NCBI GenBank assembly: GCA_021807115.1
Contig: JAKAPJ010000003.1
Coordinates: forward strand, 1,775 to 65,774
From: Candidatus Micrarchaeota archaeon
GTDB taxonomy: Archaea > Micrarchaeota > Micrarchaeia > Micrarchaeales > Micrarchaeaceae
Length of the DNA stretch: 64,000 bases
Direction: 5' to 3'
Of the stretch, positions 14,419 through 57,220 are shown in pieces. The notes below the pieces were generated by a model that was given only the letters and a program-made list of their open reading frames with translations, was not told where the DNA came from and made no database searches. The first letter of the stretch is position 1, and each line of letters opens with the position of its first letter. Made by a program: the position numbers and the translations under genes.

Positions 14419-17400
14419 ATGTATAAGTTAACTTTATTTGCACTACTGCTCTTGCCGCTTGTTTGTACGACCATGACGTCAGCCAGAATTGTAATAATAA
14501 ACTTATCTATACAAAAAAACCCGATTGTATATGGGGCACAAGACAACATAACTGCAAAAACCAATGGGCCGACAGCACCACTGGCTATTTTAATAAACGG
14601 TAAGGAGGTAGCAAATGCTGGTTGTAACTACCCATGTTATGTTAATTATAGTAGTAATTTTAGCGAATGGCGCAACAACATCACCTATACAGTATGCTCA
14701 GTTCCGGCTACGTGCCTATTACCTGGTGTGTATAATGTATCGGCGTTTACGGCTTTGTCTGCTTTTCGCTATGCAAACGCTACGCTAAGCGTCACTGGTT
14801 CGTACCAGAATGTCACGCCTAATTTGGCACTGCAATCGAACCGAATAGCTTACGGTACGCAGGATGTGATAATGGCAAATTCCTTTGTGCAGTCGACAAA
14901 TGTGACCATTTTTATCAATGGTTTAGCAATGTCGCAAGGCAGGGGAAACGCAGCATATGTAATCTGCTCGTCAAATACGACCGCAACGTGCCTTGCGCCA
15001 GGCATGTACAACATTACCGCCAAAGCCCAAATGTCAAATGCAAGTAAAAGCTTTATTCTGAATGTGTATAAGGGGGTTCCGGCCCTTTCGCTCTACCCGC
15101 CTGCAAATTATACATACAATGGCACACCGGGCAATGTTTCATTCGGAATAAAAACAGTGGGGAACCAGCTGGATGCTGTACTTTCGGGGGATGCAAACGG
15201 CTATACAAACAGCACGGCAACCGCGCTTACGGGCTACCTGCCCGGCAACTACAGCCTCGGCCTTTATTCTCCAGGCAACACCAACTATACCTATGCTGGC
15301 CTGTCTGCAAAGTTCAGCATATACCCGGTAGTTAACACCATAAAGACAGGAGTTCTCCCTACAGCAATCGCGGTGGATACCTGCAGGGACTACGTTTACG
15401 TGGCCAACTACGGCTCGAATACGCTTTCAGTGATAAACGGCACAGCAGTGATCGCAAACCTTTCCGTAGGGGCCGGGCCGCAGGCGCTCGTGTTCGACAG
15501 AAACAACTGTGAAATGTACTCTGCTGACTTTGCCGCCTCCGAAGTCACAGCAGTGGCCGGTCTTGACGTGATTGGGAACATGAGCGTAGGCAGCAACCCT
15601 GTGGCCCTAGCATTTGACAACGCGACCAATTCCATATATTCCGCAGACTACGGGTCGGACGAGATATCTGTAATAAACACGCTGTCGGACAGCCTCCAGA
15701 CCAACATAGGCGTGGGCCGCAAGCCCATAGCCATCCTGTACAACCCGATAAGGAACCTCACATATGTAGCCAATTTCGGCTCGAACAACGTATCCATATC
15801 CAACGGCGTTGCGGTAGTAAACAGCGTGGATGTGGGCGTGGAACCCGATGCGCTCGCGTACAACTCCACGGGCTGCGTATACGTTGCGAACTACGGGAGC
15901 GCCACGGTGTCCGTAATATGCGGGCTCCAGACAAGCACCATACCCAATGTCATGCCCCCGGCCCCACCGCAGCCGGGATACGGGAGCGGGTCCGGGGGGC
16001 CCGGCGTACCGTTCGGGGACAACGGCGCTTCGGGGTCCGCAGTGTGCACATCGCAGAACTGCTACACCATAAACCCCTCCAGGTGCCCGGATTGCATAGA
16101 CGAATTCCCGCCAAGCATAATAGTGGACACGCAGATGTGCAAATGCGGGAACCAGACCGCGGTCGTGGTCGACCTGATTCCGAGCGCCCCGTTCTTCGCC
16201 CTCTTCACGAAGAATTACCTTGATGCCACCGTCGCCGATGTCATATCGCAGCTCCAGGCGCAGGGGTTCAAAATCAACGACTTCAACGCAAGCGGCATGG
16301 CAAATCCGGCTGTCTCCTACACCGTGGCCACAACCGGTGTGGACTTCAACAACGGGTTTGGCATACCGGTTTCGGACGACCTGGTCAACCTGAGCAATGG
16401 CAACCCGCCATACCTAAGGAGCCTCTCCCTGCTGGGGCAGAACGGCATAGCGCTGCTTACCCCCATCTTCTACAGCGTCGGGGCCAGGGCCAGCCCTGCC
16501 GCTGATGGCGTTGCCCGCATGGTCATTGGCACGCTCAACGATGGCAGGCTGGCCATGCCTATTGACTATACCTTCATGATGGAGCCTAACTGGTATTTCT
16601 TCTCCCCTCCGCCTGCATACATACCGCTCTCTGTGGGGTCCATATACCAATCGGCTGGCCCGGGGCAGATGGTTGTCTTAACGATAGCCGCATCCGCACC
16701 GGCGAACGTACCAAGGTACGCGCTGGATGTGGGCGGGAACTTTGCACTGCCTTATATAGTAGGCTTAAACGAGCCTAGCGACGCGGAACAGTTCAACTAT
16801 TCCAGGAACGTGTCATCCAACACCGTATATGCAGCCGCCCCTGAAACGATGTCGGTGGCCTTTTCAGAGACGGGGCTTGGGGCGGGGGCGGTGTGGGGTG
16901 TGACGATCAACGGCACCACGCTGTATTCGAATTCTACCAGCCTCGTATTCCAGGGCCTTCGCCAAGGCAGCTACACGTATTCCGTGAATTCGGTGCGGAA
17001 CTACACCGCCATCCCGCCAGGCAGCCTGACAATAAACTGCTCAAACCTTACAGTGGGCATAGCATTCCAACCGGAGCCGCACACGGTCACATTTGTGTCA
17101 AACAGGACCGGAATAGGTTCCTGGGGCATCAGCCTGTCCAGCGGCCAGTCCCTGACGACCGCATCGGACTCCGTGCAGTTCAAGCTGTACAATGGGCAGT
17201 ACAAATTCAGCGCCGTGCCGCCAATCGGCTTCAGCGCCCTCCCAGCCATGGGGAACTTCACGGTTAATGGCACGAATGTTACCATAGAGATAGGCTTCAG
17301 GGGCACGTACGCGAACATGAGCGTGAATGCGATAAAGGTGGGCAAGTACCCGATAGCCGAGCTCTTCGACCCCCAGGACTGCCTGCTGTATGTTGCGAAC

Positions 17401-45213: not shown

Positions 45214-45249
45214 CATAATAAGCTTGCCCTGGCAATTATACTCGTTCAT

Positions 45250-45324
45250 GGGCTCGTAGCTCAGCTTGGATAGAGCGACAGCCTTCTAAGCTGAAGGTCG
45301 CGGGTTCAAATCCCGCCGAGCCCA
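45250..45324 (+). tRNA. tRNA-Arg(TCT): tRNA-Arg, anticodon TCT
   Basis: Hand-folded cloverleaf. Acceptor GGGCTCG/CGAGCCC, D stem GCTC/GAGC, anticodon loop cTTCTaa, T arm GCGGG-TTCAAAT-CCCGC, discriminator A. 75 nt, no intron. Confidence 0.88.
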
Positions 45325-45392
45325 TTTTATTGCGGCTTTGTCTCTGGAGGCGGGCGGGGAATGGATATAAGCTGCATCCCATAATTGATACT

Positions 45393-51131: not shown

Positions 51132-52430
51132 CTACATGAACTTGCCGAACTTCTTCTTGAAGTTCCTGTCGTTCTTCAGATTGTCGAATACCTTTTTCAT
51201 CTTGTTGAAGTCCGATATCATGGTGCGCACCTCCCCTTCGCTCGTGCCGCTCCCTGAGGCTATCCTCCTGACCCTGGCAGGGTCGTGGAGCAGCTTGGCG
51301 TTCTTGCGCTCCTTGGCGGTCATCGATCCGATTATCACCTTGTAGCGGTTCAGCTTTTCCTCGCCCTGCTCCACCACTTCCTTGGGCACGTCAGGCGCGC
51401 CCATCATCCCGAATACGCTCTTCAGCGGGCCCATCTTGCCCATGGCCTTGAGCTGGGTGTAGAACGTGTCGAAGTTAAGCTCTTCCATGGCCACGTCCTC
51501 GGGGTTTATGTTGGCCTCCTTTATCGCGTTCTGGACATTCTCCACCAGCGCGGCGATGTCGGGTATGCCAAGCAGCCTGCCTATGAACTTGTCAGAGTCA
51601 TACGGCTCGATGTTGCTCAGCTTCTCCCCTGTGGTTATGAACATGACGGACGCGTTGACTGCGTGCGTTGCACTCAGGGCGCCGCCACCCTTGCCCGAGC
51701 CGTCCATCTTGGTGACTATCACACCGGATATCTTGACAGCATCGTCGAACTCCTTGGCCTGCCTGCCTGAGACCTGCCCTATGTCAGCGCTAACCACGAG
51801 TATCTTCTCATCGGGCTGGAATGCCGCAAACACCCTCTTCAGCTCGCCTATCAGCGCGTCGTCTAGCGCGTTCCTGCCGCTGGTGTCACATATGACGACC
51901 TGCCTGTCGCCCAGCTTTGCCAGCCCCTCCTTCACCACCTTGACCGGGTCCTGTTCGCCCTTTATGCCGAAAAACGCCACGTTTGCCTGCTTGGCCAGCG
52001 TCTCAAGCTGCTCGTACGCCGCTGGCCTTGATACGTCGCAGCATATCAGCGCCGCACTCATGCCCCTGTCCTGGTAGAACTTGGCTAGCTTTGCCGCGGT
52101 GGTGGTCTTGCCCGCACCATAGAGGCCTAGCAGCAGTATGCGCTGGCGCCGCATCTTGGGATTGTACGACCCCCCGCCCATGAGCTTGACGAGCTCGTCG
52201 TATACTATGTTGGTTATGTAGTCCGTAGGGGCCACGCCCTGCGGCGGCTTGCTCTTCAGCGCCTTGTCCTCTATGTTCTTTGTGAACTGCAGCACAAGCT
52301 GCACGTCTACGTCTGAGCTTATGAGGGTCTTCTGCAGCTCCTTGTCGAACTCCTTTATGGTCTTGGCGTCTATTATGGTGGAGCGTGTCAGCTTTGCTAT
52401 GGCGTGCCTTAAGCCTTCACCTAGGTCCAT
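51132..52430 (-). CDS. srp54: Signal recognition particle protein SRP54
   Basis: LLLGLYGAGKTTTAAKLA, DTSGR, and a Met-rich M domain (...FGMMGAP...). Confidence 0.95.
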   Translation of the reverse strand: MDLGEGLRHAIAKLTRSTIIDAKTIKEFDKELQKTLISSDVDVQLVLQFTKNIEDKALKSKPPQGVAPTDYITNIVYDELVKLMGGGSYNPKMRRQRILLLGLYGAGKTTTAAKLAKFYQDRGMSAALICCDVSRPAAYEQLETLAKQANVAFFGIKGEQDPVKVVKEGLAKLGDRQVVICDTSGRNALDDALIGELKRVFAAFQPDEKILVVSADIGQVSGRQAKEFDDAVKISGVIVTKMDGSGKGGGALSATHAVNASVMFITTGEKLSNIEPYDSDKFIGRLLGIPDIAALVENVQNAIKEANINPEDVAMEELNFDTFYTQLKAMGKMGPLKSVFGMMGAPDVPKEVVEQGEEKLNRYKVIIGSMTAKERKNAKLLHDPARVRRIASGSGTSEGEVRTMISDFNKMKKVFDNLKNDRNFKKKFGKFM

Positions 52431-52433
52431 GGA

Positions 52434-52468
52434 AATCTACTGATGTGCTGATGGATAAGCAGTAGATT
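52434..52468. promoter_or_regulatory. 9-bp inverted repeat (AATCTACTG-N17-CAGTAGATT) abutting the srp54 start codon
   Basis: Arms at 52434-42 and 52460-68. It lies between a TATA-like element (52478-97 region) and the srp54 ATG at 52430. Confidence 0.4.
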
Positions 52469-52554
52469 CTGATGGGTTTTATAACTATTTATTCTTAATG
52501 TTTAATGCGTGCCGCCGCCGAATTTGGCGCACGGGTGCTTTATTGAAGCTGGTA

Positions 52555-53694
52555 ATGACGCAGTCCAACCTTACGCTGCGCGGGGGAGGGGAGAGGGTCC
52601 TGCTCAAGATAGCGCAGCACTACGACGCCAAGATATACACGGCGGAATACGACAAGGGCTCCACGTTCGAGGAGTTCGCGGACCTTGACGTCAGCGTGAT
52701 AGGCAAGGGGGGGCTGCGCGGCATGATGCCGTACGGCAGAGTGGCGCAGGGGATAACATACGGCATGGCATTCTACGGCATGAGAGTGAGGGAGGACTAC
52801 GACGTCATAAACGCGCATATGGCGCCTAGCCACTGGATACGGCACCTGAACGACCGCGTGCTGTGGTACTGCCATACGCCGCTTAGGGATGTGTGGGACC
52901 TTTACTGGTACAGGCTGAGCCTGAAGAAACCACTCCAGAAGCCGGTGTACATGGTTGGGGCCAAGGCGGTGAGGGCCATAGACCGCAGGGTGGTCAGGGA
53001 CATAGAGTTCATATTCGCAAACAGCCACAACACTAGGTCCAGGCTGGTGAAGTACTTCGGCCGGGACGATGCTAAGGTGCTGAAGGGCGGCATAGACTCG
53101 GGCAGGTACGAGAACAGAGGGGACGGGAGGTACTTCCTATACCCGTCAAGGATATCGCCGAACAAGAGGCAGACGCTCGCCATAGAGGCGTTTGTGCGCT
53201 TCAAGAGGCTGATGGGCAGGAAGGCTGATGGGTATAGGCTCATCATGGCTGGCTCCATCTCGAAGGACAAAGCATTCCAGGACTACTATGCGCAGGTGGC
53301 GGATATGGCAAGGAAGGTGAGCGGGGTGAGCGTGCTGACCAATATAGATGACAAAAGGCTTCTGGACCTGTATTCGAGATCCACCGCGGTCCTATATCCC
53401 CCTATGGACGAGGACTACGGGCTGGTGCCGCTGGAGGCCATGGCCAGCGGGAAGGTGGTGATAGCGTCCAACGAGGGAGGGCCCCGCGAGACTGTGTCTG
53501 ACGGCAGCACGGGCTTCCTGGTCAATGGGCCGCAGGGCATGGCGGAAAGAATGCGCGATGTGGTGCTGGAGCCGGCGAGGGCCAAGGACATGGGCAGGCG
53601 CGGAGTTCGGAACGTGCGGTCCAACTACTCATGGGAGAACTTCTTCCAGACATTTGACAAGGGACTGAGGAGGGTAAAAAAGGGAGGGACGTGA
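52555..53694 (+). CDS. Glycosyltransferase family 4 (GT-B fold)
   Basis: ...YPSRISPNKRQ... and the C-terminal EDYGLVPLEAMASGKVVIASNEGGPRETV E-x7-E motif. ATG at 52555 preferred. Confidence 0.88.
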   Translation: MTQSNLTLRGGGERVLLKIAQHYDAKIYTAEYDKGSTFEEFADLDVSVIGKGGLRGMMPYGRVAQGITYGMAFYGMRVREDYDVINAHMAPSHWIRHLNDRVLWYCHTPLRDVWDLYWYRLSLKKPLQKPVYMVGAKAVRAIDRRVVRDIEFIFANSHNTRSRLVKYFGRDDAKVLKGGIDSGRYENRGDGRYFLYPSRISPNKRQTLAIEAFVRFKRLMGRKADGYRLIMAGSISKDKAFQDYYAQVADMARKVSGVSVLTNIDDKRLLDLYSRSTAVLYPPMDEDYGLVPLEAMASGKVVIASNEGGPRETVSDGSTGFLVNGPQGMAERMRDVVLEPARAKDMGRRGVRNVRSNYSWENFFQTFDKGLRRVKKGGT

Positions 53695-53716: not shown

Positions 53717-55558
53717 TCAGCCGGCGCCGACTATTGTCTTGGATGTCACGTAGCCGGGGCTGAACGCCACGACCTCTATTGCCGTAGAGCTGGCGAAGTA
53801 CGGCAGCTGGTCTTCCACTGTGACATCGTAGGTGGAGTTGGGAGGGAGCGCCTGCACGGCAGGGCCAGACACCACGCGCAGGCTGGGCGGATTGCTGCTT
53901 ACTATGAAGAGCGATACAGTCTCGTTGGCGCTCCCGCTGTTAGTAAGCATTATGCTTATGTTACTCATCTGCCGTATTGTGCTGTAATGGTCCGAGACTG
54001 TGGTTACGCCGGGGGATATGTGCCCTATTTCGAGGGTGCCGTGCGAGACGTAATAGGTATGGGCGATTATAGCCACAGCCGCCAGGGCGATGGCCAAGGC
54101 GAATACGACGGGGCGCATGGCCGCCCTCCTTGCGCCGCCGCTGCGACGGGGCGCATGGCCATCGGCATTGAAGCATACAGCAAATAGCAGCGGCACGAAC
54201 GGCAGGACGTAATACGATTCATTCCTCAATGACAGGAAAAAAACAACGAATGGCGCTGCCGGCAGCAGCATGCGCATGGAATCGGGCCGCTCGTATAACA
54301 GCAGCAGCATCGAAGCATAAGCCGCCGCGGCGGCGAGGGTGTAGTACCATGTGGGGACGGGATAGAAAGCGGTAAGGAATTCGCCGAGATTTACGCCGGA
54401 GGGAAACAGGGCACCAATGTTGAAAAGCTGCAGCATGTCGGGGAGCGCATGCGTTGGCGACGCAGCGATGAAGTACCCGGCAATGGCCAGAAATGACAGT
54501 GCGCAGTACCCTGCGCTGGCTGCGAGCCTGCGGCTGCCGCCCTCCTTCGCCACCAGCACACCGAAGAGGGGCAGGACGATCCACACCAGCTGCGTTGTCG
54601 CCGCGGCGATTCCAAGCAGGACGCCTGCGCGCACCGGCCGTGCCCTTTCCATGTATGCGGCTAGCAGCAGCACGGATATCGGCAGGTACTCCGCAATATG
54701 CGCCGTTGTTTCTGTGATGGCGAAAAACCAAACCGCCATTGGCAAAATAAGCATGCCATCCATGTTGGACCGATGGTAGACAGCAAGCGCCGAGAAAACT
54801 GCGACCACTATGCCGGCAAGCAGGAGATACTGCGCGGCCGCCCCGAGAGGCAGGGCGGTGAACGGGAGGGCGAGGAGAAAGCTGCCTGGGGGATAGTCAT
54901 ATCCGTACTCGTATGTGCCGTTCAGGAACGCGGTAGGGGTCATGTTGTTATGCACCAGTATGGGCGCCATGGAATGCGCGTACGGATCTGCGCCCTTCAG
55001 GAAAAGGGATGCCGCATAGTAGTTGTATGCTACCTCGTCCGAGCTCGGCACGGCTGCGGCGCCATTCGGCCCGTAGATTATGTAGAACTGCACAATGCCT
55101 ATCACCACGGATGCCGCAAGCATGGCGATTATTGCGCCGCGCCACCCCGGCGCCTTCATGCCGTGAATCGCCTTGGCGGAATAGTGCACCAGCACCACGG
55201 AAACCGCGGAGCTCATTATCGCCACGGAGATGGAGGTGATCAGGTAGGCGTTGGGCGGCGATTGCAGTGACGATATCTCAATGTAGGCTATTATGGCTGA
55301 GAGTGCCGCCGCGGCCACGTGGCCACGGCGCCATTTGGCCACCCCTGGCGATGATGCCGCCGCAAACAGGAAAAATGATATAGCAGCAAGGGCGAGTAGG
55401 CCGCCCATGAGCGGCGCGGAAAGGTAAAGGGAGTTGCTGTATAGGACGTAGGACAGTATGATGTCAGCTATGGCGATAGAGAGGAGTACGGGCCTTGCGC
55501 CAAGTTTCCGCTTTAGGTCCACCTTTGGGGCTGCGGAAAATATTACCCGTGTTGTCAT
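53717..55558 (-). CDS. GT-C-fold integral membrane glycosyltransferase-like protein (DUF2029/GT87-like) with a C-terminal extracytoplasmic domain
   Basis: More than 10 TM segments. SDEVAYNYYAASLFLKGADPY and YGYDYPPGSFLL resemble DUF2029 signature loops. The assignment is from memory. Confidence 0.6.
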   Translation of the reverse strand: MTTRVIFSAAPKVDLKRKLGARPVLLSIAIADIILSYVLYSNSLYLSAPLMGGLLALAAISFFLFAAASSPGVAKWRRGHVAAAALSAIIAYIEISSLQSPPNAYLITSISVAIMSSAVSVVLVHYSAKAIHGMKAPGWRGAIIAMLAASVVIGIVQFYIIYGPNGAAAVPSSDEVAYNYYAASLFLKGADPYAHSMAPILVHNNMTPTAFLNGTYEYGYDYPPGSFLLALPFTALPLGAAAQYLLLAGIVVAVFSALAVYHRSNMDGMLILPMAVWFFAITETTAHIAEYLPISVLLLAAYMERARPVRAGVLLGIAAATTQLVWIVLPLFGVLVAKEGGSRRLAASAGYCALSFLAIAGYFIAASPTHALPDMLQLFNIGALFPSGVNLGEFLTAFYPVPTWYYTLAAAAAYASMLLLLYERPDSMRMLLPAAPFVVFFLSLRNESYYVLPFVPLLFAVCFNADGHAPRRSGGARRAAMRPVVFALAIALAAVAIIAHTYYVSHGTLEIGHISPGVTTVSDHYSTIRQMSNISIMLTNSGSANETVSLFIVSSNPPSLRVVSGPAVQALPPNSTYDVTVEDQLPYFASSTAIEVVAFSPGYVTSKTIVGAG

Positions 55559-55621: not shown

Positions 55622-55948
55622 CTACTTTTTCTGCGCAGACGAGGGCGTTGCGGGATTGAGCTCTATCACGTACTTGGATATCACCTTTGCGGCGTAATCC
55701 AGCACACGCTTTATGTTTGCCTCGGTGTTCGTCCCGGTGCATATCATTTTGCCGTTCTTGAAAAGTATTATGACAGCCTTTGGGTCCGCTATCTTGAAGA
55801 TTGCGCCTGGAAACTGCTCGGGTTCGTAGTCCACGGCCTTGACTTCCTTTGACAGTGCGTAGAGGTCTATCACGGCATGAAGGTCCGCACTTACTACGAT
55901 GTTCTGTATCTTTATGGCCGGGGTAGGTATGTCGTTGCCCTTGGACAC
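55622..55948 (-). CDS. Single-repeat TATA-binding-protein-like protein (108 aa, half the size of a canonical TBP)
   Basis: GTG start at 55948, TAG at 55622-24. IQNIVVSADLHAVIDLYALSKEVKAVDYEPEQFPGAIFKIADPKAVIILFKNGKMICTGTNTEANIKRV is exactly one TBP repeat. In the track it is buried in ORF 55622-57067. Confidence 0.7.
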   Translation of the reverse strand: MSKGNDIPTPAIKIQNIVVSADLHAVIDLYALSKEVKAVDYEPEQFPGAIFKIADPKAVIILFKNGKMICTGTNTEANIKRVLDYAAKVISKYVIELNPATPSSAQKK

Positions 55949-55985
55949 TGTTGCAGCTCTTTTTTTAGAAGCCGTTGAACCACCA

Positions 55986-56006
55986 TTTATATATAGATTT
56001 AAATAG
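55986..56006. promoter_or_regulatory. AT-rich bidirectional TATA region between the TBP-like gene and the GGR-like gene
   Basis: tttatatatagatttaaatag. It reads as TATA on the minus strand about 38 nt before the GTG at 55948. On the plus strand tttaaatag lies about 27 nt before the GTG at 56033. Confidence 0.45.
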
Positions 56007-56101
56007 AAAGGTTTAATAACTCTGTTAGAGCAGTGCCGGGGCGGCCGGGGCACACAAGGCAGTCTTTTCGTGCTCCGCGGACCGATTTTATGCCTTTGCG
56101 T

Positions 56102-57220
56102 ATGATGGAGATGAAGCGGGTCATAGTTGTAGGTGCAGGTATCATAGGGTTGGTGCTTGCCAGGGAGCTCGCCCGGGGCGGCATACCGGTGACAGTTTAC
56201 GATTCCAAGGCGCATGTTGCCGACAAGACTGCCAAGGCATCCGGGATATTTTCCAAGGAGGGCCTGGCGAAGATCGCGATAAAGTACGACAGGGCAATAG
56301 TGAACGAGCTGAACGGGGCGGTAATATTCGCAGGAGGCGAGAGCATGCGGGTTGGGGCCAAGACCACAAAGGCCTACGTGCTGGACAGGGGCATATTCGC
56401 CGAATGCTGCGCAGACGAGGCCAGGGCAGCGGGCACCGACATAGTCATGGGGAGGAGGCTGACCAGGGATGACATTGTGCAACTGGCGAAGGACAATGAC
56501 AACGTCGTTGTGGGGGCGGATGGCGTGGTATCCACCGTAGCAAGTGCGATCGGTTTCCCCCCCATAAAGGAGTATGTGCTGACCTATAAGGCAGAGTACC
56601 GGGATGCGGCGGTACCGGACCTGCACAAGGTGGGTCTGTTCTTTTCCAAAAAGATAGCGCGCAGGTTCTTTGGCTGGACTGTGCCGTATTCGAAATCGAA
56701 ACTTGAGGTGGGCATAGGGATAAGCAGCCTGTCGAGGGGCAACAGCTCGGCCGCGTTCAACGCATTCGCGAAGACCCCATACATGCAGGAGGCGCTCGGG
56801 GGGGCGAGCAAGGTTGCCGGGTATGCTAGCATGATACCACTGGAGTGGAGGCGGAGGACCGTGATGGGGAACGTGCTCCTTGTGGGCGACGCGGCGGGCC
56901 AGGTGAAGGCCACCACCGGCGGGGGGGTGGTGTTCGGCGCATCGTGCGCGAGGATAGCCGCGGACGCGATAGTGGCGGCGTTCAGGAAGGGCAGGCCTCT
57001 GGCGGCGTACGAGAAGGCGTGGCGCAGGGAGCATGAGCTTGACCTGAGGCTGCATCGGATAGCGCACAGCTACTACTCGATGCTGGGCGATAGGGGTTTC
57101 TCCGCCATGATAAAGCTATCGAAGGTGATGGGGATAGACAGCTTCCTGGGCACATACGGGGATATGGATCGCCCTACCCTTATAATTAGGAGGTTCTTCC
57201 TGAGAGGGATCAGCGAGTGA
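56102..57220 (+). CDS. Geranylgeranyl reductase-family FAD-dependent oxidoreductase
   Basis: KRVIVVGAGIIGLVLARELA (GxGxxG) and ...LLVGDAAGQVKATTGGGV.... The start could be 56033, 56090, 56102 or 56111. Confidence 0.8.
   Translation: MMEMKRVIVVGAGIIGLVLARELARGGIPVTVYDSKAHVADKTAKASGIFSKEGLAKIAIKYDRAIVNELNGAVIFAGGESMRVGAKTTKAYVLDRGIFAECCADEARAAGTDIVMGRRLTRDDIVQLAKDNDNVVVGADGVVSTVASAIGFPPIKEYVLTYKAEYRDAAVPDLHKVGLFFSKKIARRFFGWTVPYSKSKLEVGIGISSLSRGNSSAAFNAFAKTPYMQEALGGASKVAGYASMIPLEWRRRTVMGNVLLVGDAAGQVKATTGGGVVFGASCARIAADAIVAAFRKGRPLAAYEKAWRREHELDLRLHRIAHSYYSMLGDRGFSAMIKLSKVMGIDSFLGTYGDMDRPTLIIRRFFLRGISE

What the first reader, a model, noticed from the sequence alone, without database searches (positions are those of the whole stretch)
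55622..55948. Stand-alone single-repeat (half-size) TATA-binding-protein gene, hidden inside a long antisense ORF
The last 108 codons of track ORF 55622-57067 read MSKGNDIPTPAIKIQNIVVSADLHAVIDLYALSKEVKAVDYEPEQFPGAIFKIADPKAVIILFKNGKMICTGTNTEANIKRVLDYAAKVISKYVIELNPATPSSAQKK. The in-frame GTG is at 55948 and the stop is TAG at 55622-24. The sequence carries the QNIV.S..L, YEPEQFPG and F.NGK..CTG signatures of one TBP repeat, and only one.

Canonical archaeal TBPs are about 180 aa with two tandem repeats forming the saddle. The next 150 nt upstream are an AT-rich divergent promoter shared with the GGR-like gene, so there is no room for a second repeat. The rest of the 481-aa ORF is antisense to that gene and reads as R/H/P-rich noise.

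Downstream, a 63-nt GC-rich spacer without a TATA leads into the GT-C membrane glycosyltransferase gene, which suggests co-transcription.

Possible roles:
- a homodimerising TBP, the arrangement postulated for the pre-duplication ancestor;
- one half of a split TBP whose partner is encoded elsewhere;
- a TBP-domain decoy or regulator.
Basis: partly seen in the sequence, partly recalled or inferred. Interest (0 to 1): 0.78.

Follow-up and report, generated by a model that had tools for sequence, protein, structure and literature searches.

The report
Single-lobe TATA-binding protein of Micrarchaeota
This is a real, strongly conserved gene for just one half of the TATA-binding protein, in a tiny DPANN archaeon whose relatives carry two such half-genes and, as far as I could see, no full-size one, so the DNA-binding "saddle" that starts transcription must be assembled there from separate subunits.

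Summary
Window 55622-55948 (-) encodes one complete TBP repeat (Pfam PF00352, E=3e-24, one hit), and the window holds no second repeat.

It is not a remnant. It belongs to a family ("A-type") with about 390 protein clusters in Micrarchaeota. Members average 79% pairwise identity and always sit between a GGR-like gene and GT4/SRP54.

Relatives also carry a second single-repeat paralogue ("B-type"). B occupies the RpoF-DUF655-L21e locus, where other Micrarchaeota and Iainarchaeota keep a normal two-repeat TBP. A and B occur together in one MAG and on one 484-kb contig. The complete Mia14 genome has two TBP-family genes.

One B-clade genome has re-fused two 93%-identical B lobes into a 196-aa TBP. 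Symmetric lobe pairs therefore work in this clade.

Best reading: A is a single-lobe TBP that acts as a dimer. I favour a homodimer, but pairing with B is not excluded.

- The start is probably a conserved non-canonical ACG at 55975 (117 aa), not GTG 55948.
- Co-transcription with the downstream glycosyltransferase is not conserved.

I found no description of this in the searchable literature. Absence of a two-lobe TBP in these genomes is inferred, not proven.

The parts
55622..55975 (-). Proposed full coding sequence of the A-type single-lobe TBP: ACG start, 117 codons, then TAG.
   Evidence: sequence; Pfam; conserved in-frame ACG behind an SD-like motif. In six related loci there is no in-frame ATG/GTG/TTG between the upstream stop and the domain.
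55670..55915 (-). The TBP lobe itself (residues 12-93 of the 108-aa product). Secondary structure is S1-H1-S2-S3-S4-S5-H2. It carries QNIV, YEPEQFPG (the stirrup) and the two DNA-kinking Phe residues (F46, F63).
   Evidence: Pfam PF00352, one hit, E=3e-24. AF2 model and Foldseek. Invariant columns in 76 family members.
55973..55975 (-). Conserved non-canonical ACG, the probable initiation codon.
   Evidence: The codon at this position is ACG in 19 of 22 loci of the window's subclade that retain the SD region. It is ATG in L001, TTG in L016/L104/L115, ATA in L077 and GCG in L089. It is always in frame, and it is directly preceded by a stop in L014, L030, L064, L067 and L110.
55979..55984 (-). 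Shine-Dalgarno-like GGTGGT (GGTGAT in most relatives), 3 nt before the ACG.
   Evidence: Complementarity to the 3' end of archaeal 16S rRNA is textbook knowledge and was not tested here.
55985..56019 (-). AT-rich promoter region with TATA-like elements: TTATTAAAC-CTTTC at 56019-56006, TATTTAAATC at 56005-55996 and TATATATAAAT at 55995-55985. It is shared with the divergent GGR-like gene.
   Evidence: The motif TATTTAAA(C/T)CTTTC is conserved in related loci, with its centre about 26 nt upstream of the SD-like motif. The TSS has not been mapped.
55949..57067 (-). The remainder of the 481-aa 'track' ORF. It is non-coding on this strand, being antisense to the GGR-like gene plus the intergenic region.
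   Evidence: The upstream reading frame has no conserved homologues and is interrupted by stops in relatives.
56033..57220 (+). Divergent neighbour: a FAD-dependent geranylgeranyl-reductase-like gene. It is a conserved flank of every A-type gene. The true start is probably ATG at 56102-56111.
   Evidence: Pfam FAD_binding_3, DAO and Lycopene_cycl. Synteny in L001, L004 and about 25 other loci.
53717..55558 (-). Downstream GT87-like membrane glycosyltransferase, 63 nt after the stop with no T-run between. This is a lineage-specific insertion, not part of a conserved operon.
   Evidence: Pfam GT87. tblastn finds this gene next to none of the other A-type loci. Relatives have GT4 or other genes there instead.
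51132..53694 (.). Conserved far flank of the A locus: GT4 glycosyltransferase (52498-53694, +) and SRP54 (51132-52430, -).

Best explanation
The gene encodes the 'A-type' member of a two-paralogue, single-lobe TBP system found in the Micrarchaeaceae/Micrarchaeales branch of the DPANN archaea.

Each product is one complete TBP lobe. It keeps the minor-groove residues (N16, V18), both kinking phenylalanines (F46, F63) and the acidic YEPEQFPG stirrup that contacts TFB in canonical TBPs. One lobe cannot span a TATA box, so the protein must pair through its S1 edge strand to rebuild the ten-stranded saddle.

I favour a two-fold symmetric A2 homodimer acting as a second, specialised TBP beside a B2 homodimer. 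In that arrangement promoter polarity would be set by BRE-TFB alone. Mixed A-B dimers are possible.

The B paralogue sits at the ancestral TBP locus. A is a derived copy at a new locus. In the window's subclade it is translated from a conserved weak ACG codon, which suggests deliberately low or regulated synthesis.

What is shown: single lobe, family-wide conservation, two paralogues, their loci, and one natural B-B re-fusion. What is inferred: dimerisation, TATA/TFB binding, absence of any two-lobe TBP in the same genomes, and ACG initiation.
For: 1. It is a real, constrained gene. There are 392 homologous clusters, and 119 of the best 120 are single-lobe proteins of 90-174 aa from Micrarchaeota MAGs. 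Mean pairwise identity is 79% over 29 species-level loci, and the A clade has 100% bootstrap support. The locus nuo-GGR-A-...-GT4-SRP54 is fixed.

2. DNA- and TFB-contact motifs are invariant in 76 members. The fold equals one TBP lobe.

3. A second single-lobe paralogue, B, exists.
- P0202 (B) and P0067 (A) lie on two contigs of the same assembly, GCA_028866905.1.
- P0042 (A), P0510 (B) and the DUF655 neighbour P0443 all have 483,663 bp as their longest contig.
- The complete Mia14 genome has 2 arCOG01764 members where 13 of the other 14 DPANN genomes tabulated have 1 (PMC5498576 Suppl. Data 4).

4. B is the positional orthologue of the canonical TBP. Genes next to RpoF-DUF655-L21e are two-lobe in other Micrarchaeota and Iainarchaeota. 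They are single-lobe B in all 11 of 11 loci whose DUF655 scores at least 219 bits against the B-clade reference. The complete genome of Ca. Micrarchaeum harzensis A_DKE carries a 110-aa B there.

5. Symmetric pairs work. P0273 lies at that same locus in a B-clade genome and is a 196-aa TBP. Its two lobes are 93% identical in protein and 87.6% in DNA, with 20 synonymous against 6 non-synonymous codon differences. Each lobe is 85-93% identical to single-lobe B proteins of sister species.

6. The N and C lobes of DPANN two-lobe TBPs never form separate clades (0 of 500 bootstraps). Lobes have therefore been repeatedly homogenised or re-duplicated.

7. Several single-lobe loci sit on long contigs of 0.2-1.3 Mb, and one is in a closed genome. 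Repeat collapse during assembly is therefore an unlikely source.
Against: - No whole genome could be scanned. The absence of a two-lobe TBP in A-bearing genomes rests on the ancestral locus, the Mia14 count and three co-occurrence cases.
No assembly among the 119 sampled blocks showed both A and B. That is expected for a small random sample, but it is also what one would see if co-occurrence were not universal.
- On the 940-kb contig that carries A-type P0061, no L21e-TBP pair follows the RpoF-DUF655 locus. The B gene of that genome is therefore unlocated.
- Whether the closed A_DKE genome has an A-type gene is unknown.
- The A+B sister relationship has only 51% bootstrap support.
- There are no expression, TSS or protein data.
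Confidence: 0.6

Rival explanations
1. Obligate split TBP. A and B are the two lobes of one heterodimeric TBP, and neither works alone. A would play the part of the better-conserved, TFB-binding C lobe and B that of the N lobe.
For: - A and B co-occur in the same assembly or contig in the cases that could be checked, and Mia14 has exactly two TBP-family genes.
- A and B appear in nearly equal numbers, about 27 and about 26, in a random sample of GTDB species.
- A is more conserved than B (79% against 70% mean identity). I recall that C lobes are usually the more conserved lobe; among the DPANN two-lobe TBPs measured here they were not (N-N 60.4%, C-C 58.3%).
- The best NCBIfam alignment of A falls on the C lobe in 9 of 10 TBP models. 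B splits 5 to 5.
Against: - A B-clade genome has fused two B lobes into one protein that is under purifying selection. B-B pairs therefore suffice, at least there.
- A's conserved weak ACG start argues against 1:1 stoichiometry with the ATG-initiated B.
- A and B are weakly each other's closest relatives. They are not descendants of distinct N and C lobes.
Confidence: 0.25
2. Regulator or decoy. A does not build a functional saddle. Instead it titrates TFB, caps B lobes into inactive dimers, or binds DNA as a monomer the way the single TBP-like domain of RNase HIII binds duplexes.
For: - Known stand-alone TBP-domain proteins, namely Halobacterium TbpA and the Thermococcales proteins, are non-essential or of unknown function (PMC3597702).
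- An ACG start would give low abundance.
- A has a long stem branch with A-specific substitutions such as NIVVS and LH-A-IDL.
Against: - Every residue class needed for TATA binding and TFB contact is invariant.
- A is more conserved than the B paralogue at the ancestral locus. That is unusual for a dispensable modulator.
Confidence: 0.1
3. Accessory paralogue beside an undetected ordinary two-lobe TBP encoded elsewhere in the same genome, as with Halobacterium TbpA.
For: - Only 64 kb of this genome was visible.
- Many Micrarchaeota MAGs do encode 182-203-aa two-lobe TBPs.
Against: - Those two-lobe genes occupy the RpoF-DUF655-L21e locus in other lineages. In the clade that has A, that locus holds single-lobe B.
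- Mia14 has two, not three, TBP-family genes.
- No two-lobe hit shares a contig length with any A-bearing large contig in the lists shown.
Confidence: 0.08
4. Decaying remnant of a two-repeat gene, or an assembly artefact in which two near-identical tandem repeats were collapsed.
For: Two-lobe TBPs with very similar repeats exist in the phylum, and short-read assemblers can collapse such repeats.
Against: - There is family-wide purifying conservation, intact promoter and SD elements, and a fixed synteny across dozens of independent assemblies.
- The same architecture appears on large contigs: the 1.21-Mb contig L001, the 535-kb contig L110, and MFD MAG contigs.
- No repeat remnant flanks the gene.
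Confidence: 0.02

Closest known systems
Canonical archaeal TBP (about 180 aa, two tandem PF00352 repeats; e.g. P. woesei 1PCZ/1AIS, S. acidocaldarius 1MP9, M. jannaschii 2Z8U)
   Same: It has the same fold per lobe (rmsd about 1 A), the same QNIV, YEPEQFPG and F..GK..C.G motifs, and the same Phe pair.
   Different: It has one lobe per polypeptide, so the saddle has to be made from two chains. It has Lys-rich tails where many archaeal TBPs, as I recall, have an acidic C-terminal tail. It falls below every NCBIfam TBP cut-off (64-89 bits against 181-347), so NCBI's pipeline labels most members 'hypothetical protein'.
Halobacterium TbpA and the 'monopartite TBP-domain proteins' of Thermococcales (Brindefalk et al. 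2013, PMC3597702; also noted by Ravarani et al. 2020, PMC7221094)
   Same: These are also stand-alone proteins made of a single TBP domain in archaea.
   Different: They coexist with full-length TBPs in the same genome. TbpA is a close copy of half a haloarchaeal TBP and is not essential. The Thermococcales proteins are very divergent from TBP, with local matches of a few dozen residues. Here the single-lobe genes are near-canonical in sequence. One of them occupies the ancestral TBP locus, and no full-length TBP was found beside them. Neither paper lists Micrarchaeota.
Split genes of DPANN archaea (e.g. Nanoarchaeum equitans split protein genes; from my own knowledge)
   Same: A protein that is one chain in relatives is encoded by two unlinked genes in a reduced DPANN genome.
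   Different: A and B are paralogous copies of the same lobe, not the N and C parts of a once-continuous gene. The N and C lobes of related two-lobe TBPs do not form separate clades. Lobe number has changed in both directions, as the B-B re-fusion shows.
Hypothetical pre-duplication homodimeric TBP ancestor (discussed in PMC3597702)
   Same: It has the postulated architecture: a single lobe that would need to dimerise into a symmetric saddle.
   Different: It is almost certainly secondary. It is nested inside a phylum whose other members have two-lobe TBPs at the same locus. It is therefore a functional analogue of the ancestor, not a relic.
Weak non-AUG start codons used for dosage control (E. 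coli infC AUU; from my own knowledge)
   Same: A conserved near-cognate start codon sits behind a good SD in a gene for a core information-processing factor.
   Different: The codon is ACG, the organism is an archaeon, and no autoregulatory loop is known. Initiation at ACG is inferred from comparative sequence only.

Membership tests
TBP family (Pfam PF00352 / arCOG01764) | TBP-like lobe: a beta-alpha-beta4-alpha fold that matches the family profile end to end | tested here: met
   PF00352 E=3e-24, model positions 2-85 of 85. AF2 plus Foldseek give rmsd 0.8-1.1 A to TBP lobes.
TBP family (Pfam PF00352 / arCOG01764) | Two tandem lobes in one polypeptide forming the saddle | tested here: not met
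   There is one Pfam hit. A stop follows 15 codons after the domain, and the promoter lies directly upstream. The window holds no second lobe. 119 of the 120 closest homologues are also single-lobe.
TBP family (Pfam PF00352 / arCOG01764) | Minor-groove contact residues and the two intercalating Phe per lobe; the acidic stirrup (EPEQ) used for TFB/TFIIB contact | tested here: met
   N16, V18, Y41-I50 (YEPEQFPGAI), F63, K64-K67, I69, C70 and G72 are invariant in 76 sequences. Assigning these positions to DNA and TFB contacts rests on published TBP structures, from my own knowledge.
TBP family (Pfam PF00352 / arCOG01764) | Binds TATA DNA and nucleates TFB/RNAP recruitment | not testable with these tools
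   Needs EMSA or in vitro transcription.
NCBIfam TATA-box-binding protein models (NF001592-NF001601) | Whole-protein score above the curated cut-off | tested here: not met
   The best score is 88.6 bits against a cut-off of 181. The others score 64-84 against 255-347.
Known monopartite TBP-domain proteins (haloarchaeal TbpA; Thermococcales group) | Coexists with a full-length two-lobe TBP in the same genome | tested here: inconclusive
   No full-length TBP was seen in the window or at the ancestral locus of the clade, and Mia14 has only 2 family members. No complete A-bearing genome could be scanned.
Known monopartite TBP-domain proteins (Thermococcales group) | Strong divergence from bona fide TBP lobes | tested here: not met
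Split gene (two genes = the two halves of one ancestral protein) | A partner half-gene is present in the same genome | tested here: inconclusive
   This is met in relatives: GCA_028866905.1, the 483,663-bp contig, and the Mia14 count. It is not testable for the window's own genome, because the RpoF-DUF655-L21e locus is not inside the window.
Split gene (two genes = the two halves of one ancestral protein) | The two genes correspond to the N-terminal and C-terminal parts of the unsplit protein | tested here: not met
   A and B group with each other (51% bootstrap) and not with N or C lobes. N and C lobes never separate in the phylum (0 of 500 bootstraps).

The most novel reading that the evidence does not exclude
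An entire archaeal order, the Micrarchaeales, has dispensed with the two-lobe TBP and runs all transcription initiation on dimers of separately encoded single lobes (A2, B2 and perhaps A-B). This would be a living functional equivalent of the long-postulated pre-duplication homodimeric TBP. Lobe number still toggles by deletion and tandem re-fusion at the ancestral locus. The derived A paralogue is dosed through a conserved ACG initiation codon.
Probability: 0.45. Interest if true: 0.9.

Novelty: new variant of a known kind. Interest (0 to 1): 0.8.

Why it matters
The textbook view is that TBP in Archaea and Eukarya is a single chain with two lobes that arose by an ancient internal duplication. 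Whether a symmetric dimer of single lobes can do the job has only been a thought experiment.

Here nature supplies a test set within one phylum:
- near-canonical single-lobe TBPs at the ancestral TBP locus;
- a second, even better conserved single-lobe paralogue;
- closely related species with two-lobe versions, including one freshly re-fused from identical lobes.

This makes several open questions directly testable with recombinant proteins and one cultivated system (Ca. Micrarchaeum harzensis A_DKE):
- how promoter polarity is set when TBP is perfectly symmetric;
- whether TFB can dock on either stirrup;
- how duplication and fusion fix asymmetry.

It also exposes an annotation blind spot. 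These core transcription factors fall below NCBIfam cut-offs and are mostly labelled 'hypothetical protein', with starts mis-called because of the ACG codon.

Tried and rejected
- **Dimer model.** I submitted a tandem A-linker-A construct to AlphaFold2 to model the dimer.
- **Source contig.** An exact-protein look-up of the window's own product found nothing on record, so the rest of its 194-kb contig could not be read.
- **GTDB census.** It gave a random sample, not a census. No assembly in the sample showed both A and B. I judged this uninformative because the sampled fraction is small, and I note it as a caveat.
- **Extra A/B pairs.** Look-ups of three more A-type proteins from the same MAG project as two B-bearing MAGs hit other assemblies and yielded no new A/B pairs.
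- **Gene tables in supplements.** I searched the supplements of Krause 2022, Dombrowski 2020 and the 2025 Micrarchaeota paper for TBP gene counts and found nothing usable. Only Golyshina 2017 gave a count.
- **The 940-kb contig.** The RpoF-DUF655 locus of the A-bearing 940-kb contig turned out to lack the L21e-TBP pair.
- **B-family search.** A homology search seeded with a B-type protein was swamped by two-lobe TBPs, whose two domains double the score. I then switched to the neighbouring DUF655 gene as a handle.
- **Bootstrapping.** The first Biopython bootstrap run timed out. I redid it with my own NJ code.
- **Rejected readings.** I rejected pseudogene or remnant, assembly collapse, and a conserved operon with the glycosyltransferase.
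Full report
**1. The observation**

On the minus strand the window reads GTG (55948-55946) ...
- Pfam finds one, and only one, TBP repeat: PF00352, E=3e-24, 85 bits, residues 12-93, model positions 2-85 of 85.
- phmmer against PDB sequences hits both lobes of archaeal TBPs about equally.
- An AlphaFold2 model built on 76 family members (pLDDT 81.7) superposes on a single lobe of solved TBPs at 0.8-1.1 A. All 44 significant Foldseek hits are two-lobe TBPs.
- A six-frame search of the whole window finds no second lobe.
- The upstream 370-odd codons of the 481-aa ORF are antisense to a gene with FAD/geranylgeranyl-reductase-type domains. They are a chance ORF in 56% GC DNA.

**2. It is a family, not an accident**

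A homology search returns 392 protein clusters. 119 of the best 120 are single-lobe proteins of 90-174 aa, 73-93% identical to the query. Where named, they come from Candidatus Micrarchaeota/Micrarchaeia/Micrarchaeaceae MAGs, a few of them mislabelled.

The core IKIQNIVVSADLHAVIDLYALSKEVKAVDYEPEQFPGAIF.I.EPKAVIILFKNGKMICTG.NTE is almost invariant. Only the Lys-rich tails vary.

The gene always lies between a divergent GGR-like gene (with the nuo operon beyond it) and a GT4 glycosyltransferase plus SRP54. I call this family A-type.

The GT87-like membrane glycosyltransferase that follows it in the window is found next to none of the other roughly 30 loci.

**3. A second half-gene exists**

An exhaustive profile-free search of 1.8 billion representatives lists a few other single-stretch proteins. 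One is P0202 (117 aa, 56% identical).
- P0202 carries the NCBI locus tag KGH98_02665, and A-type P0067 is KGH98_01650. Both map to assembly GCA_028866905.1, on contigs 8 and 4.
- P0202 has its own TATA box and ATG and no trace of a second repeat.
- It lies in a housekeeping cluster: MoxR, RpoF(Rpb4), DUF655, L21e, TBP, methyltransferase, topoisomerase I.

I call this family B-type.

The supplementary gene table of Golyshina et al. 2017 (PMC5498576) fits this. It gives two arCOG01764 (TBP) proteins for the closed genome of Ca. Mancarchaeum acidiphilum Mia14, against one in 13 of the other 14 DPANN genomes tabulated.

**4. What occupies the ancestral TBP locus**

I scanned GTDB species genomes for the DNA pattern encoding EPEQFPGAI.

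These blocks, together with the four loci fetched earlier, contain 82 ORFs with one QFPG motif and 41 with two. A handful of the 82, from Bathyarchaeota and Nitrososphaerota MAGs, are C lobes of ordinary two-lobe TBPs whose N lobe lacks the motif.

Marker searches show:
- Every TBP-family gene next to RpoF-DUF655-L21e is one of two kinds. It is either a two-lobe TBP (other Micrarchaeota orders, Iainarchaeota) or a single-lobe gene: B-type, a 'C-type' in another Micrarchaeia lineage, or several 'D-type' singles.
- All 11 loci whose DUF655 scores at least 219 bits against the B-clade reference carry single-lobe B. No two-lobe locus exceeds 200 bits.
- A-type genes never sit at this locus.

B is therefore the positional orthologue of the canonical TBP, and A is an extra copy at a new locus.

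**5. More co-occurrence, using DUF655 as a handle**

I used the DUF655 neighbour to reach the ancestral locus in other genomes.
- In strains identical in DUF655 to a 483,663-bp contig, the locus holds a 110-aa B (P0510). P0510, A-type P0042 and DUF655 P0443 all have exactly that longest contig.
- The closed 989,838-bp genome of Ca. Micrarchaeum harzensis A_DKE carries a 110-aa B annotated 'TATA-box factor'.
- An Iainarchaeum MAG likewise has two different single-lobe genes on two contigs (L012, L100).

**6. Relationships among lobes**

| Comparison | Result |
|---|---|
| A-type, mean pairwise identity | 79% |
| B-type, mean pairwise identity | 70% |
| A against B | 52% |
| A clade, NJ bootstrap | 100% |
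| B clade, NJ bootstrap | 61% |
| A+B as sister groups | 51% |
| N lobes and C lobes of DPANN two-lobe TBPs forming separate clades | 0 of 500 |

Within two-lobe proteins of this phylum the two lobes are 47-93% identical.

**7. The re-fused B-B gene**

The most telling case is P0273.
- It lies at the ancestral locus of a B-clade genome (DUF655 227 bits).
- It is a 196-aa TBP whose lobes are 93% identical in protein and 87.6% in DNA, with 20 synonymous against 6 non-synonymous codon differences.
- Each lobe is 85-93% identical to single-lobe B proteins of sister species.

Whichever direction the change went, a single lobe and a covalent pair of near-identical lobes are interchangeable here. This is direct comparative evidence that symmetric lobe pairs are functional.

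**8. Mechanism**

One lobe carries half of the DNA-binding sheet, one pair of kinking Phe residues and one stirrup. All of these are invariant in A.

The lobe's S1 strand is the free edge that pairs with S1' in canonical TBP; this comes from published structures and was not tested here. Dimerisation is therefore the only way to build a TATA-binding saddle.

Three things make me favour A2 and B2 homodimers acting as two paralogous TBPs, with mixed dimers possible:
- B-B pairs suffice in at least one lineage.
- A has a long, well-supported stem branch.
- A appears to be translated differently from B (see section 9).

An obligate A-B heterodimer remains a serious rival (0.25). In a fully symmetric TBP either stirrup could bind TFB, so promoter polarity would depend on BRE-TFB alone. 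That is an inference from what is known for archaeal promoters.

**9. The start codon (a side finding that changes the gene model)**

In the window's subclade a Shine-Dalgarno-like GGTG(A/G/T)T is followed 3-4 nt later by an in-frame ACG in 19 of 22 loci.
- The homologous codon is ATG in L001, TTG in three loci of the other A subclade, ATA in L077 and GCG in L089.
- B-type genes have ATG-GCA-AAG at the same place.
- In L014, L030, L064, L067 and L110 a stop codon directly precedes the ACG.
- L014, L042, L047, L089, L107 and L110 have no in-frame ATG, GTG or TTG anywhere between the upstream stop and the TBP domain.
- The peptide after ACG (T-A-A/S-K...) stays in frame and is conserved.

This explains why database entries for the family range from 90 to 174 aa, with some starting inside strand S1.

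For the window the likely CDS is 55975-55622, 117 codons. The conserved TATTTAAA(C/T)CTTTC motif is centred about 26 nt upstream of the SD-like motif in relatives. In the window its variant lies at 56019-56006, with further TATA-like runs down to 55985. No TSS data exist.

**10. Novelty and limits**

Brindefalk et al. 2013 and Ravarani et al. 2020 report single-lobe TBP-domain proteins in Halobacteria and Thermococcales. These coexist with full-length TBPs, and the Thermococcales ones are very divergent. Neither paper mentions Micrarchaeota.

Seven full-text searches found no description of half-size TBPs as the TBP complement of any archaeon, nor of an ACG start in such genes. A 2021 DPANN survey simply scores TBP as present.

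NCBIfam cut-offs explain the silence. Half-size proteins score 64-89 bits against thresholds of 181-347 and are named 'hypothetical protein'.

The main gap is that I could not scan any complete A-bearing genome. 'No two-lobe TBP' therefore remains an inference, with three or four supporting cases and one unresolved genome. The dimer itself is untested.

Noticed in passing
window 55973-55975 (ACG) and 55979-55984 (GGTGGT), minus strand; L014, L030, L042, L047, L064, L067, L089, L107, L110: A conserved non-canonical ACG codon behind a Shine-Dalgarno-like motif appears to be the initiation codon of A-type genes. Six related loci have no in-frame ATG/GTG/TTG before the domain, and five have a stop directly before the ACG. 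This would be an unusual, conserved near-cognate start in an archaeal core gene.
   Followed up: yes
L141 8001-8591 (P0273); also P0271: This two-lobe TBP has lobes that are 93% (protein) and 87.6% (DNA) identical. It sits at the ancestral locus of a genome from the single-lobe B clade. It looks like a very recent tandem duplication and fusion of a single-lobe gene. A central stretch of about 60 nt around the stirrup is identical between the lobes, which might indicate gene conversion.
   Followed up: partly
L033, L052, L071, L082, L099, L108 (1.30-Mb contig), L123; L041, L043, L053, L068, L086, L117, L121: Other Micrarchaeia and Iainarchaeota lineages also have a single-lobe gene at the RpoF-DUF655-L21e locus. 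These are the 'C-type' ([34 protein letters not shown]) and various 'D-type' genes. L074 groups with both lobes of the two-lobe L017. Loss or gain of a lobe seems to have happened several times. Whether these genomes have a second half-gene is unknown.
   Followed up: partly
L012 and L100 (Iainarchaeum MAG AUK171, prefix JAGGYF); L020, L109: One Iainarchaeum assembly carries two different single-lobe TBP genes on two contigs. One is at the ancestral locus (L100). The other is elsewhere (L012), and its type recurs in L020 and L109 (95% bootstrap clade). This looks like a second, probably independent, two-half-gene system outside Micrarchaeota.
   Followed up: partly
P0128 (127 aa, ENA contig of 2,054 bp): This protein's N-terminal part is identical to an A-type protein (P0066) up to YEPEQFPGAI, and its C-terminal part is B-type-like. 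It is probably a chimeric assembly across the identical DNA of the stirrup motif, though a real recombinant is possible.
   Followed up: no
NCBIfam models NF001592-NF001601 against the window protein and P0202: Single-lobe TBPs score far below every curated TBP cut-off, so PGAP names them 'hypothetical protein'. Gene callers give lengths from 90 to 174 aa. Surveys that count 'TBP present' would not notice the half size.
   Followed up: yes
L128 (GCA_021844905.1, 940,636-bp contig, 350-361 kb): In this A-bearing genome the RpoF-DUF655 pair is followed by a P-type ATPase instead of L21e-TBP. The ancestral locus is rearranged, and the whereabouts (or existence) of B there is unknown.
   Followed up: no
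window 53717-55558 (-): A 613-aa GT87-like multi-pass membrane glycosyltransferase is inserted between the TBP gene and GT4. It is absent from this position in all related loci examined.
   Followed up: partly
window 56033-56111 (+): The listed GTG start of the GGR-like gene (56033) adds an Arg/Pro-rich 23-26 residue extension. The Rossmann motif begins right after the ATGs at 56102/56105/56111, which are more plausible starts. The reverse complement of the conserved TATTTAAA.CTTTC motif (GAAAG.TTTAAATA) looks like a BRE+TATA facing this gene.
   Followed up: no
window 16636-16791 (+): This is the only other tblastn match of the TBP lobe in the window: E=0.66, 26% identity over 60 residues. 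It is probably chance.
   Followed up: no
window 45249-45325 (+): tRNA-Arg(TCT) is the only tRNA gene ARAGORN finds in the 64-kb window.
   Followed up: no
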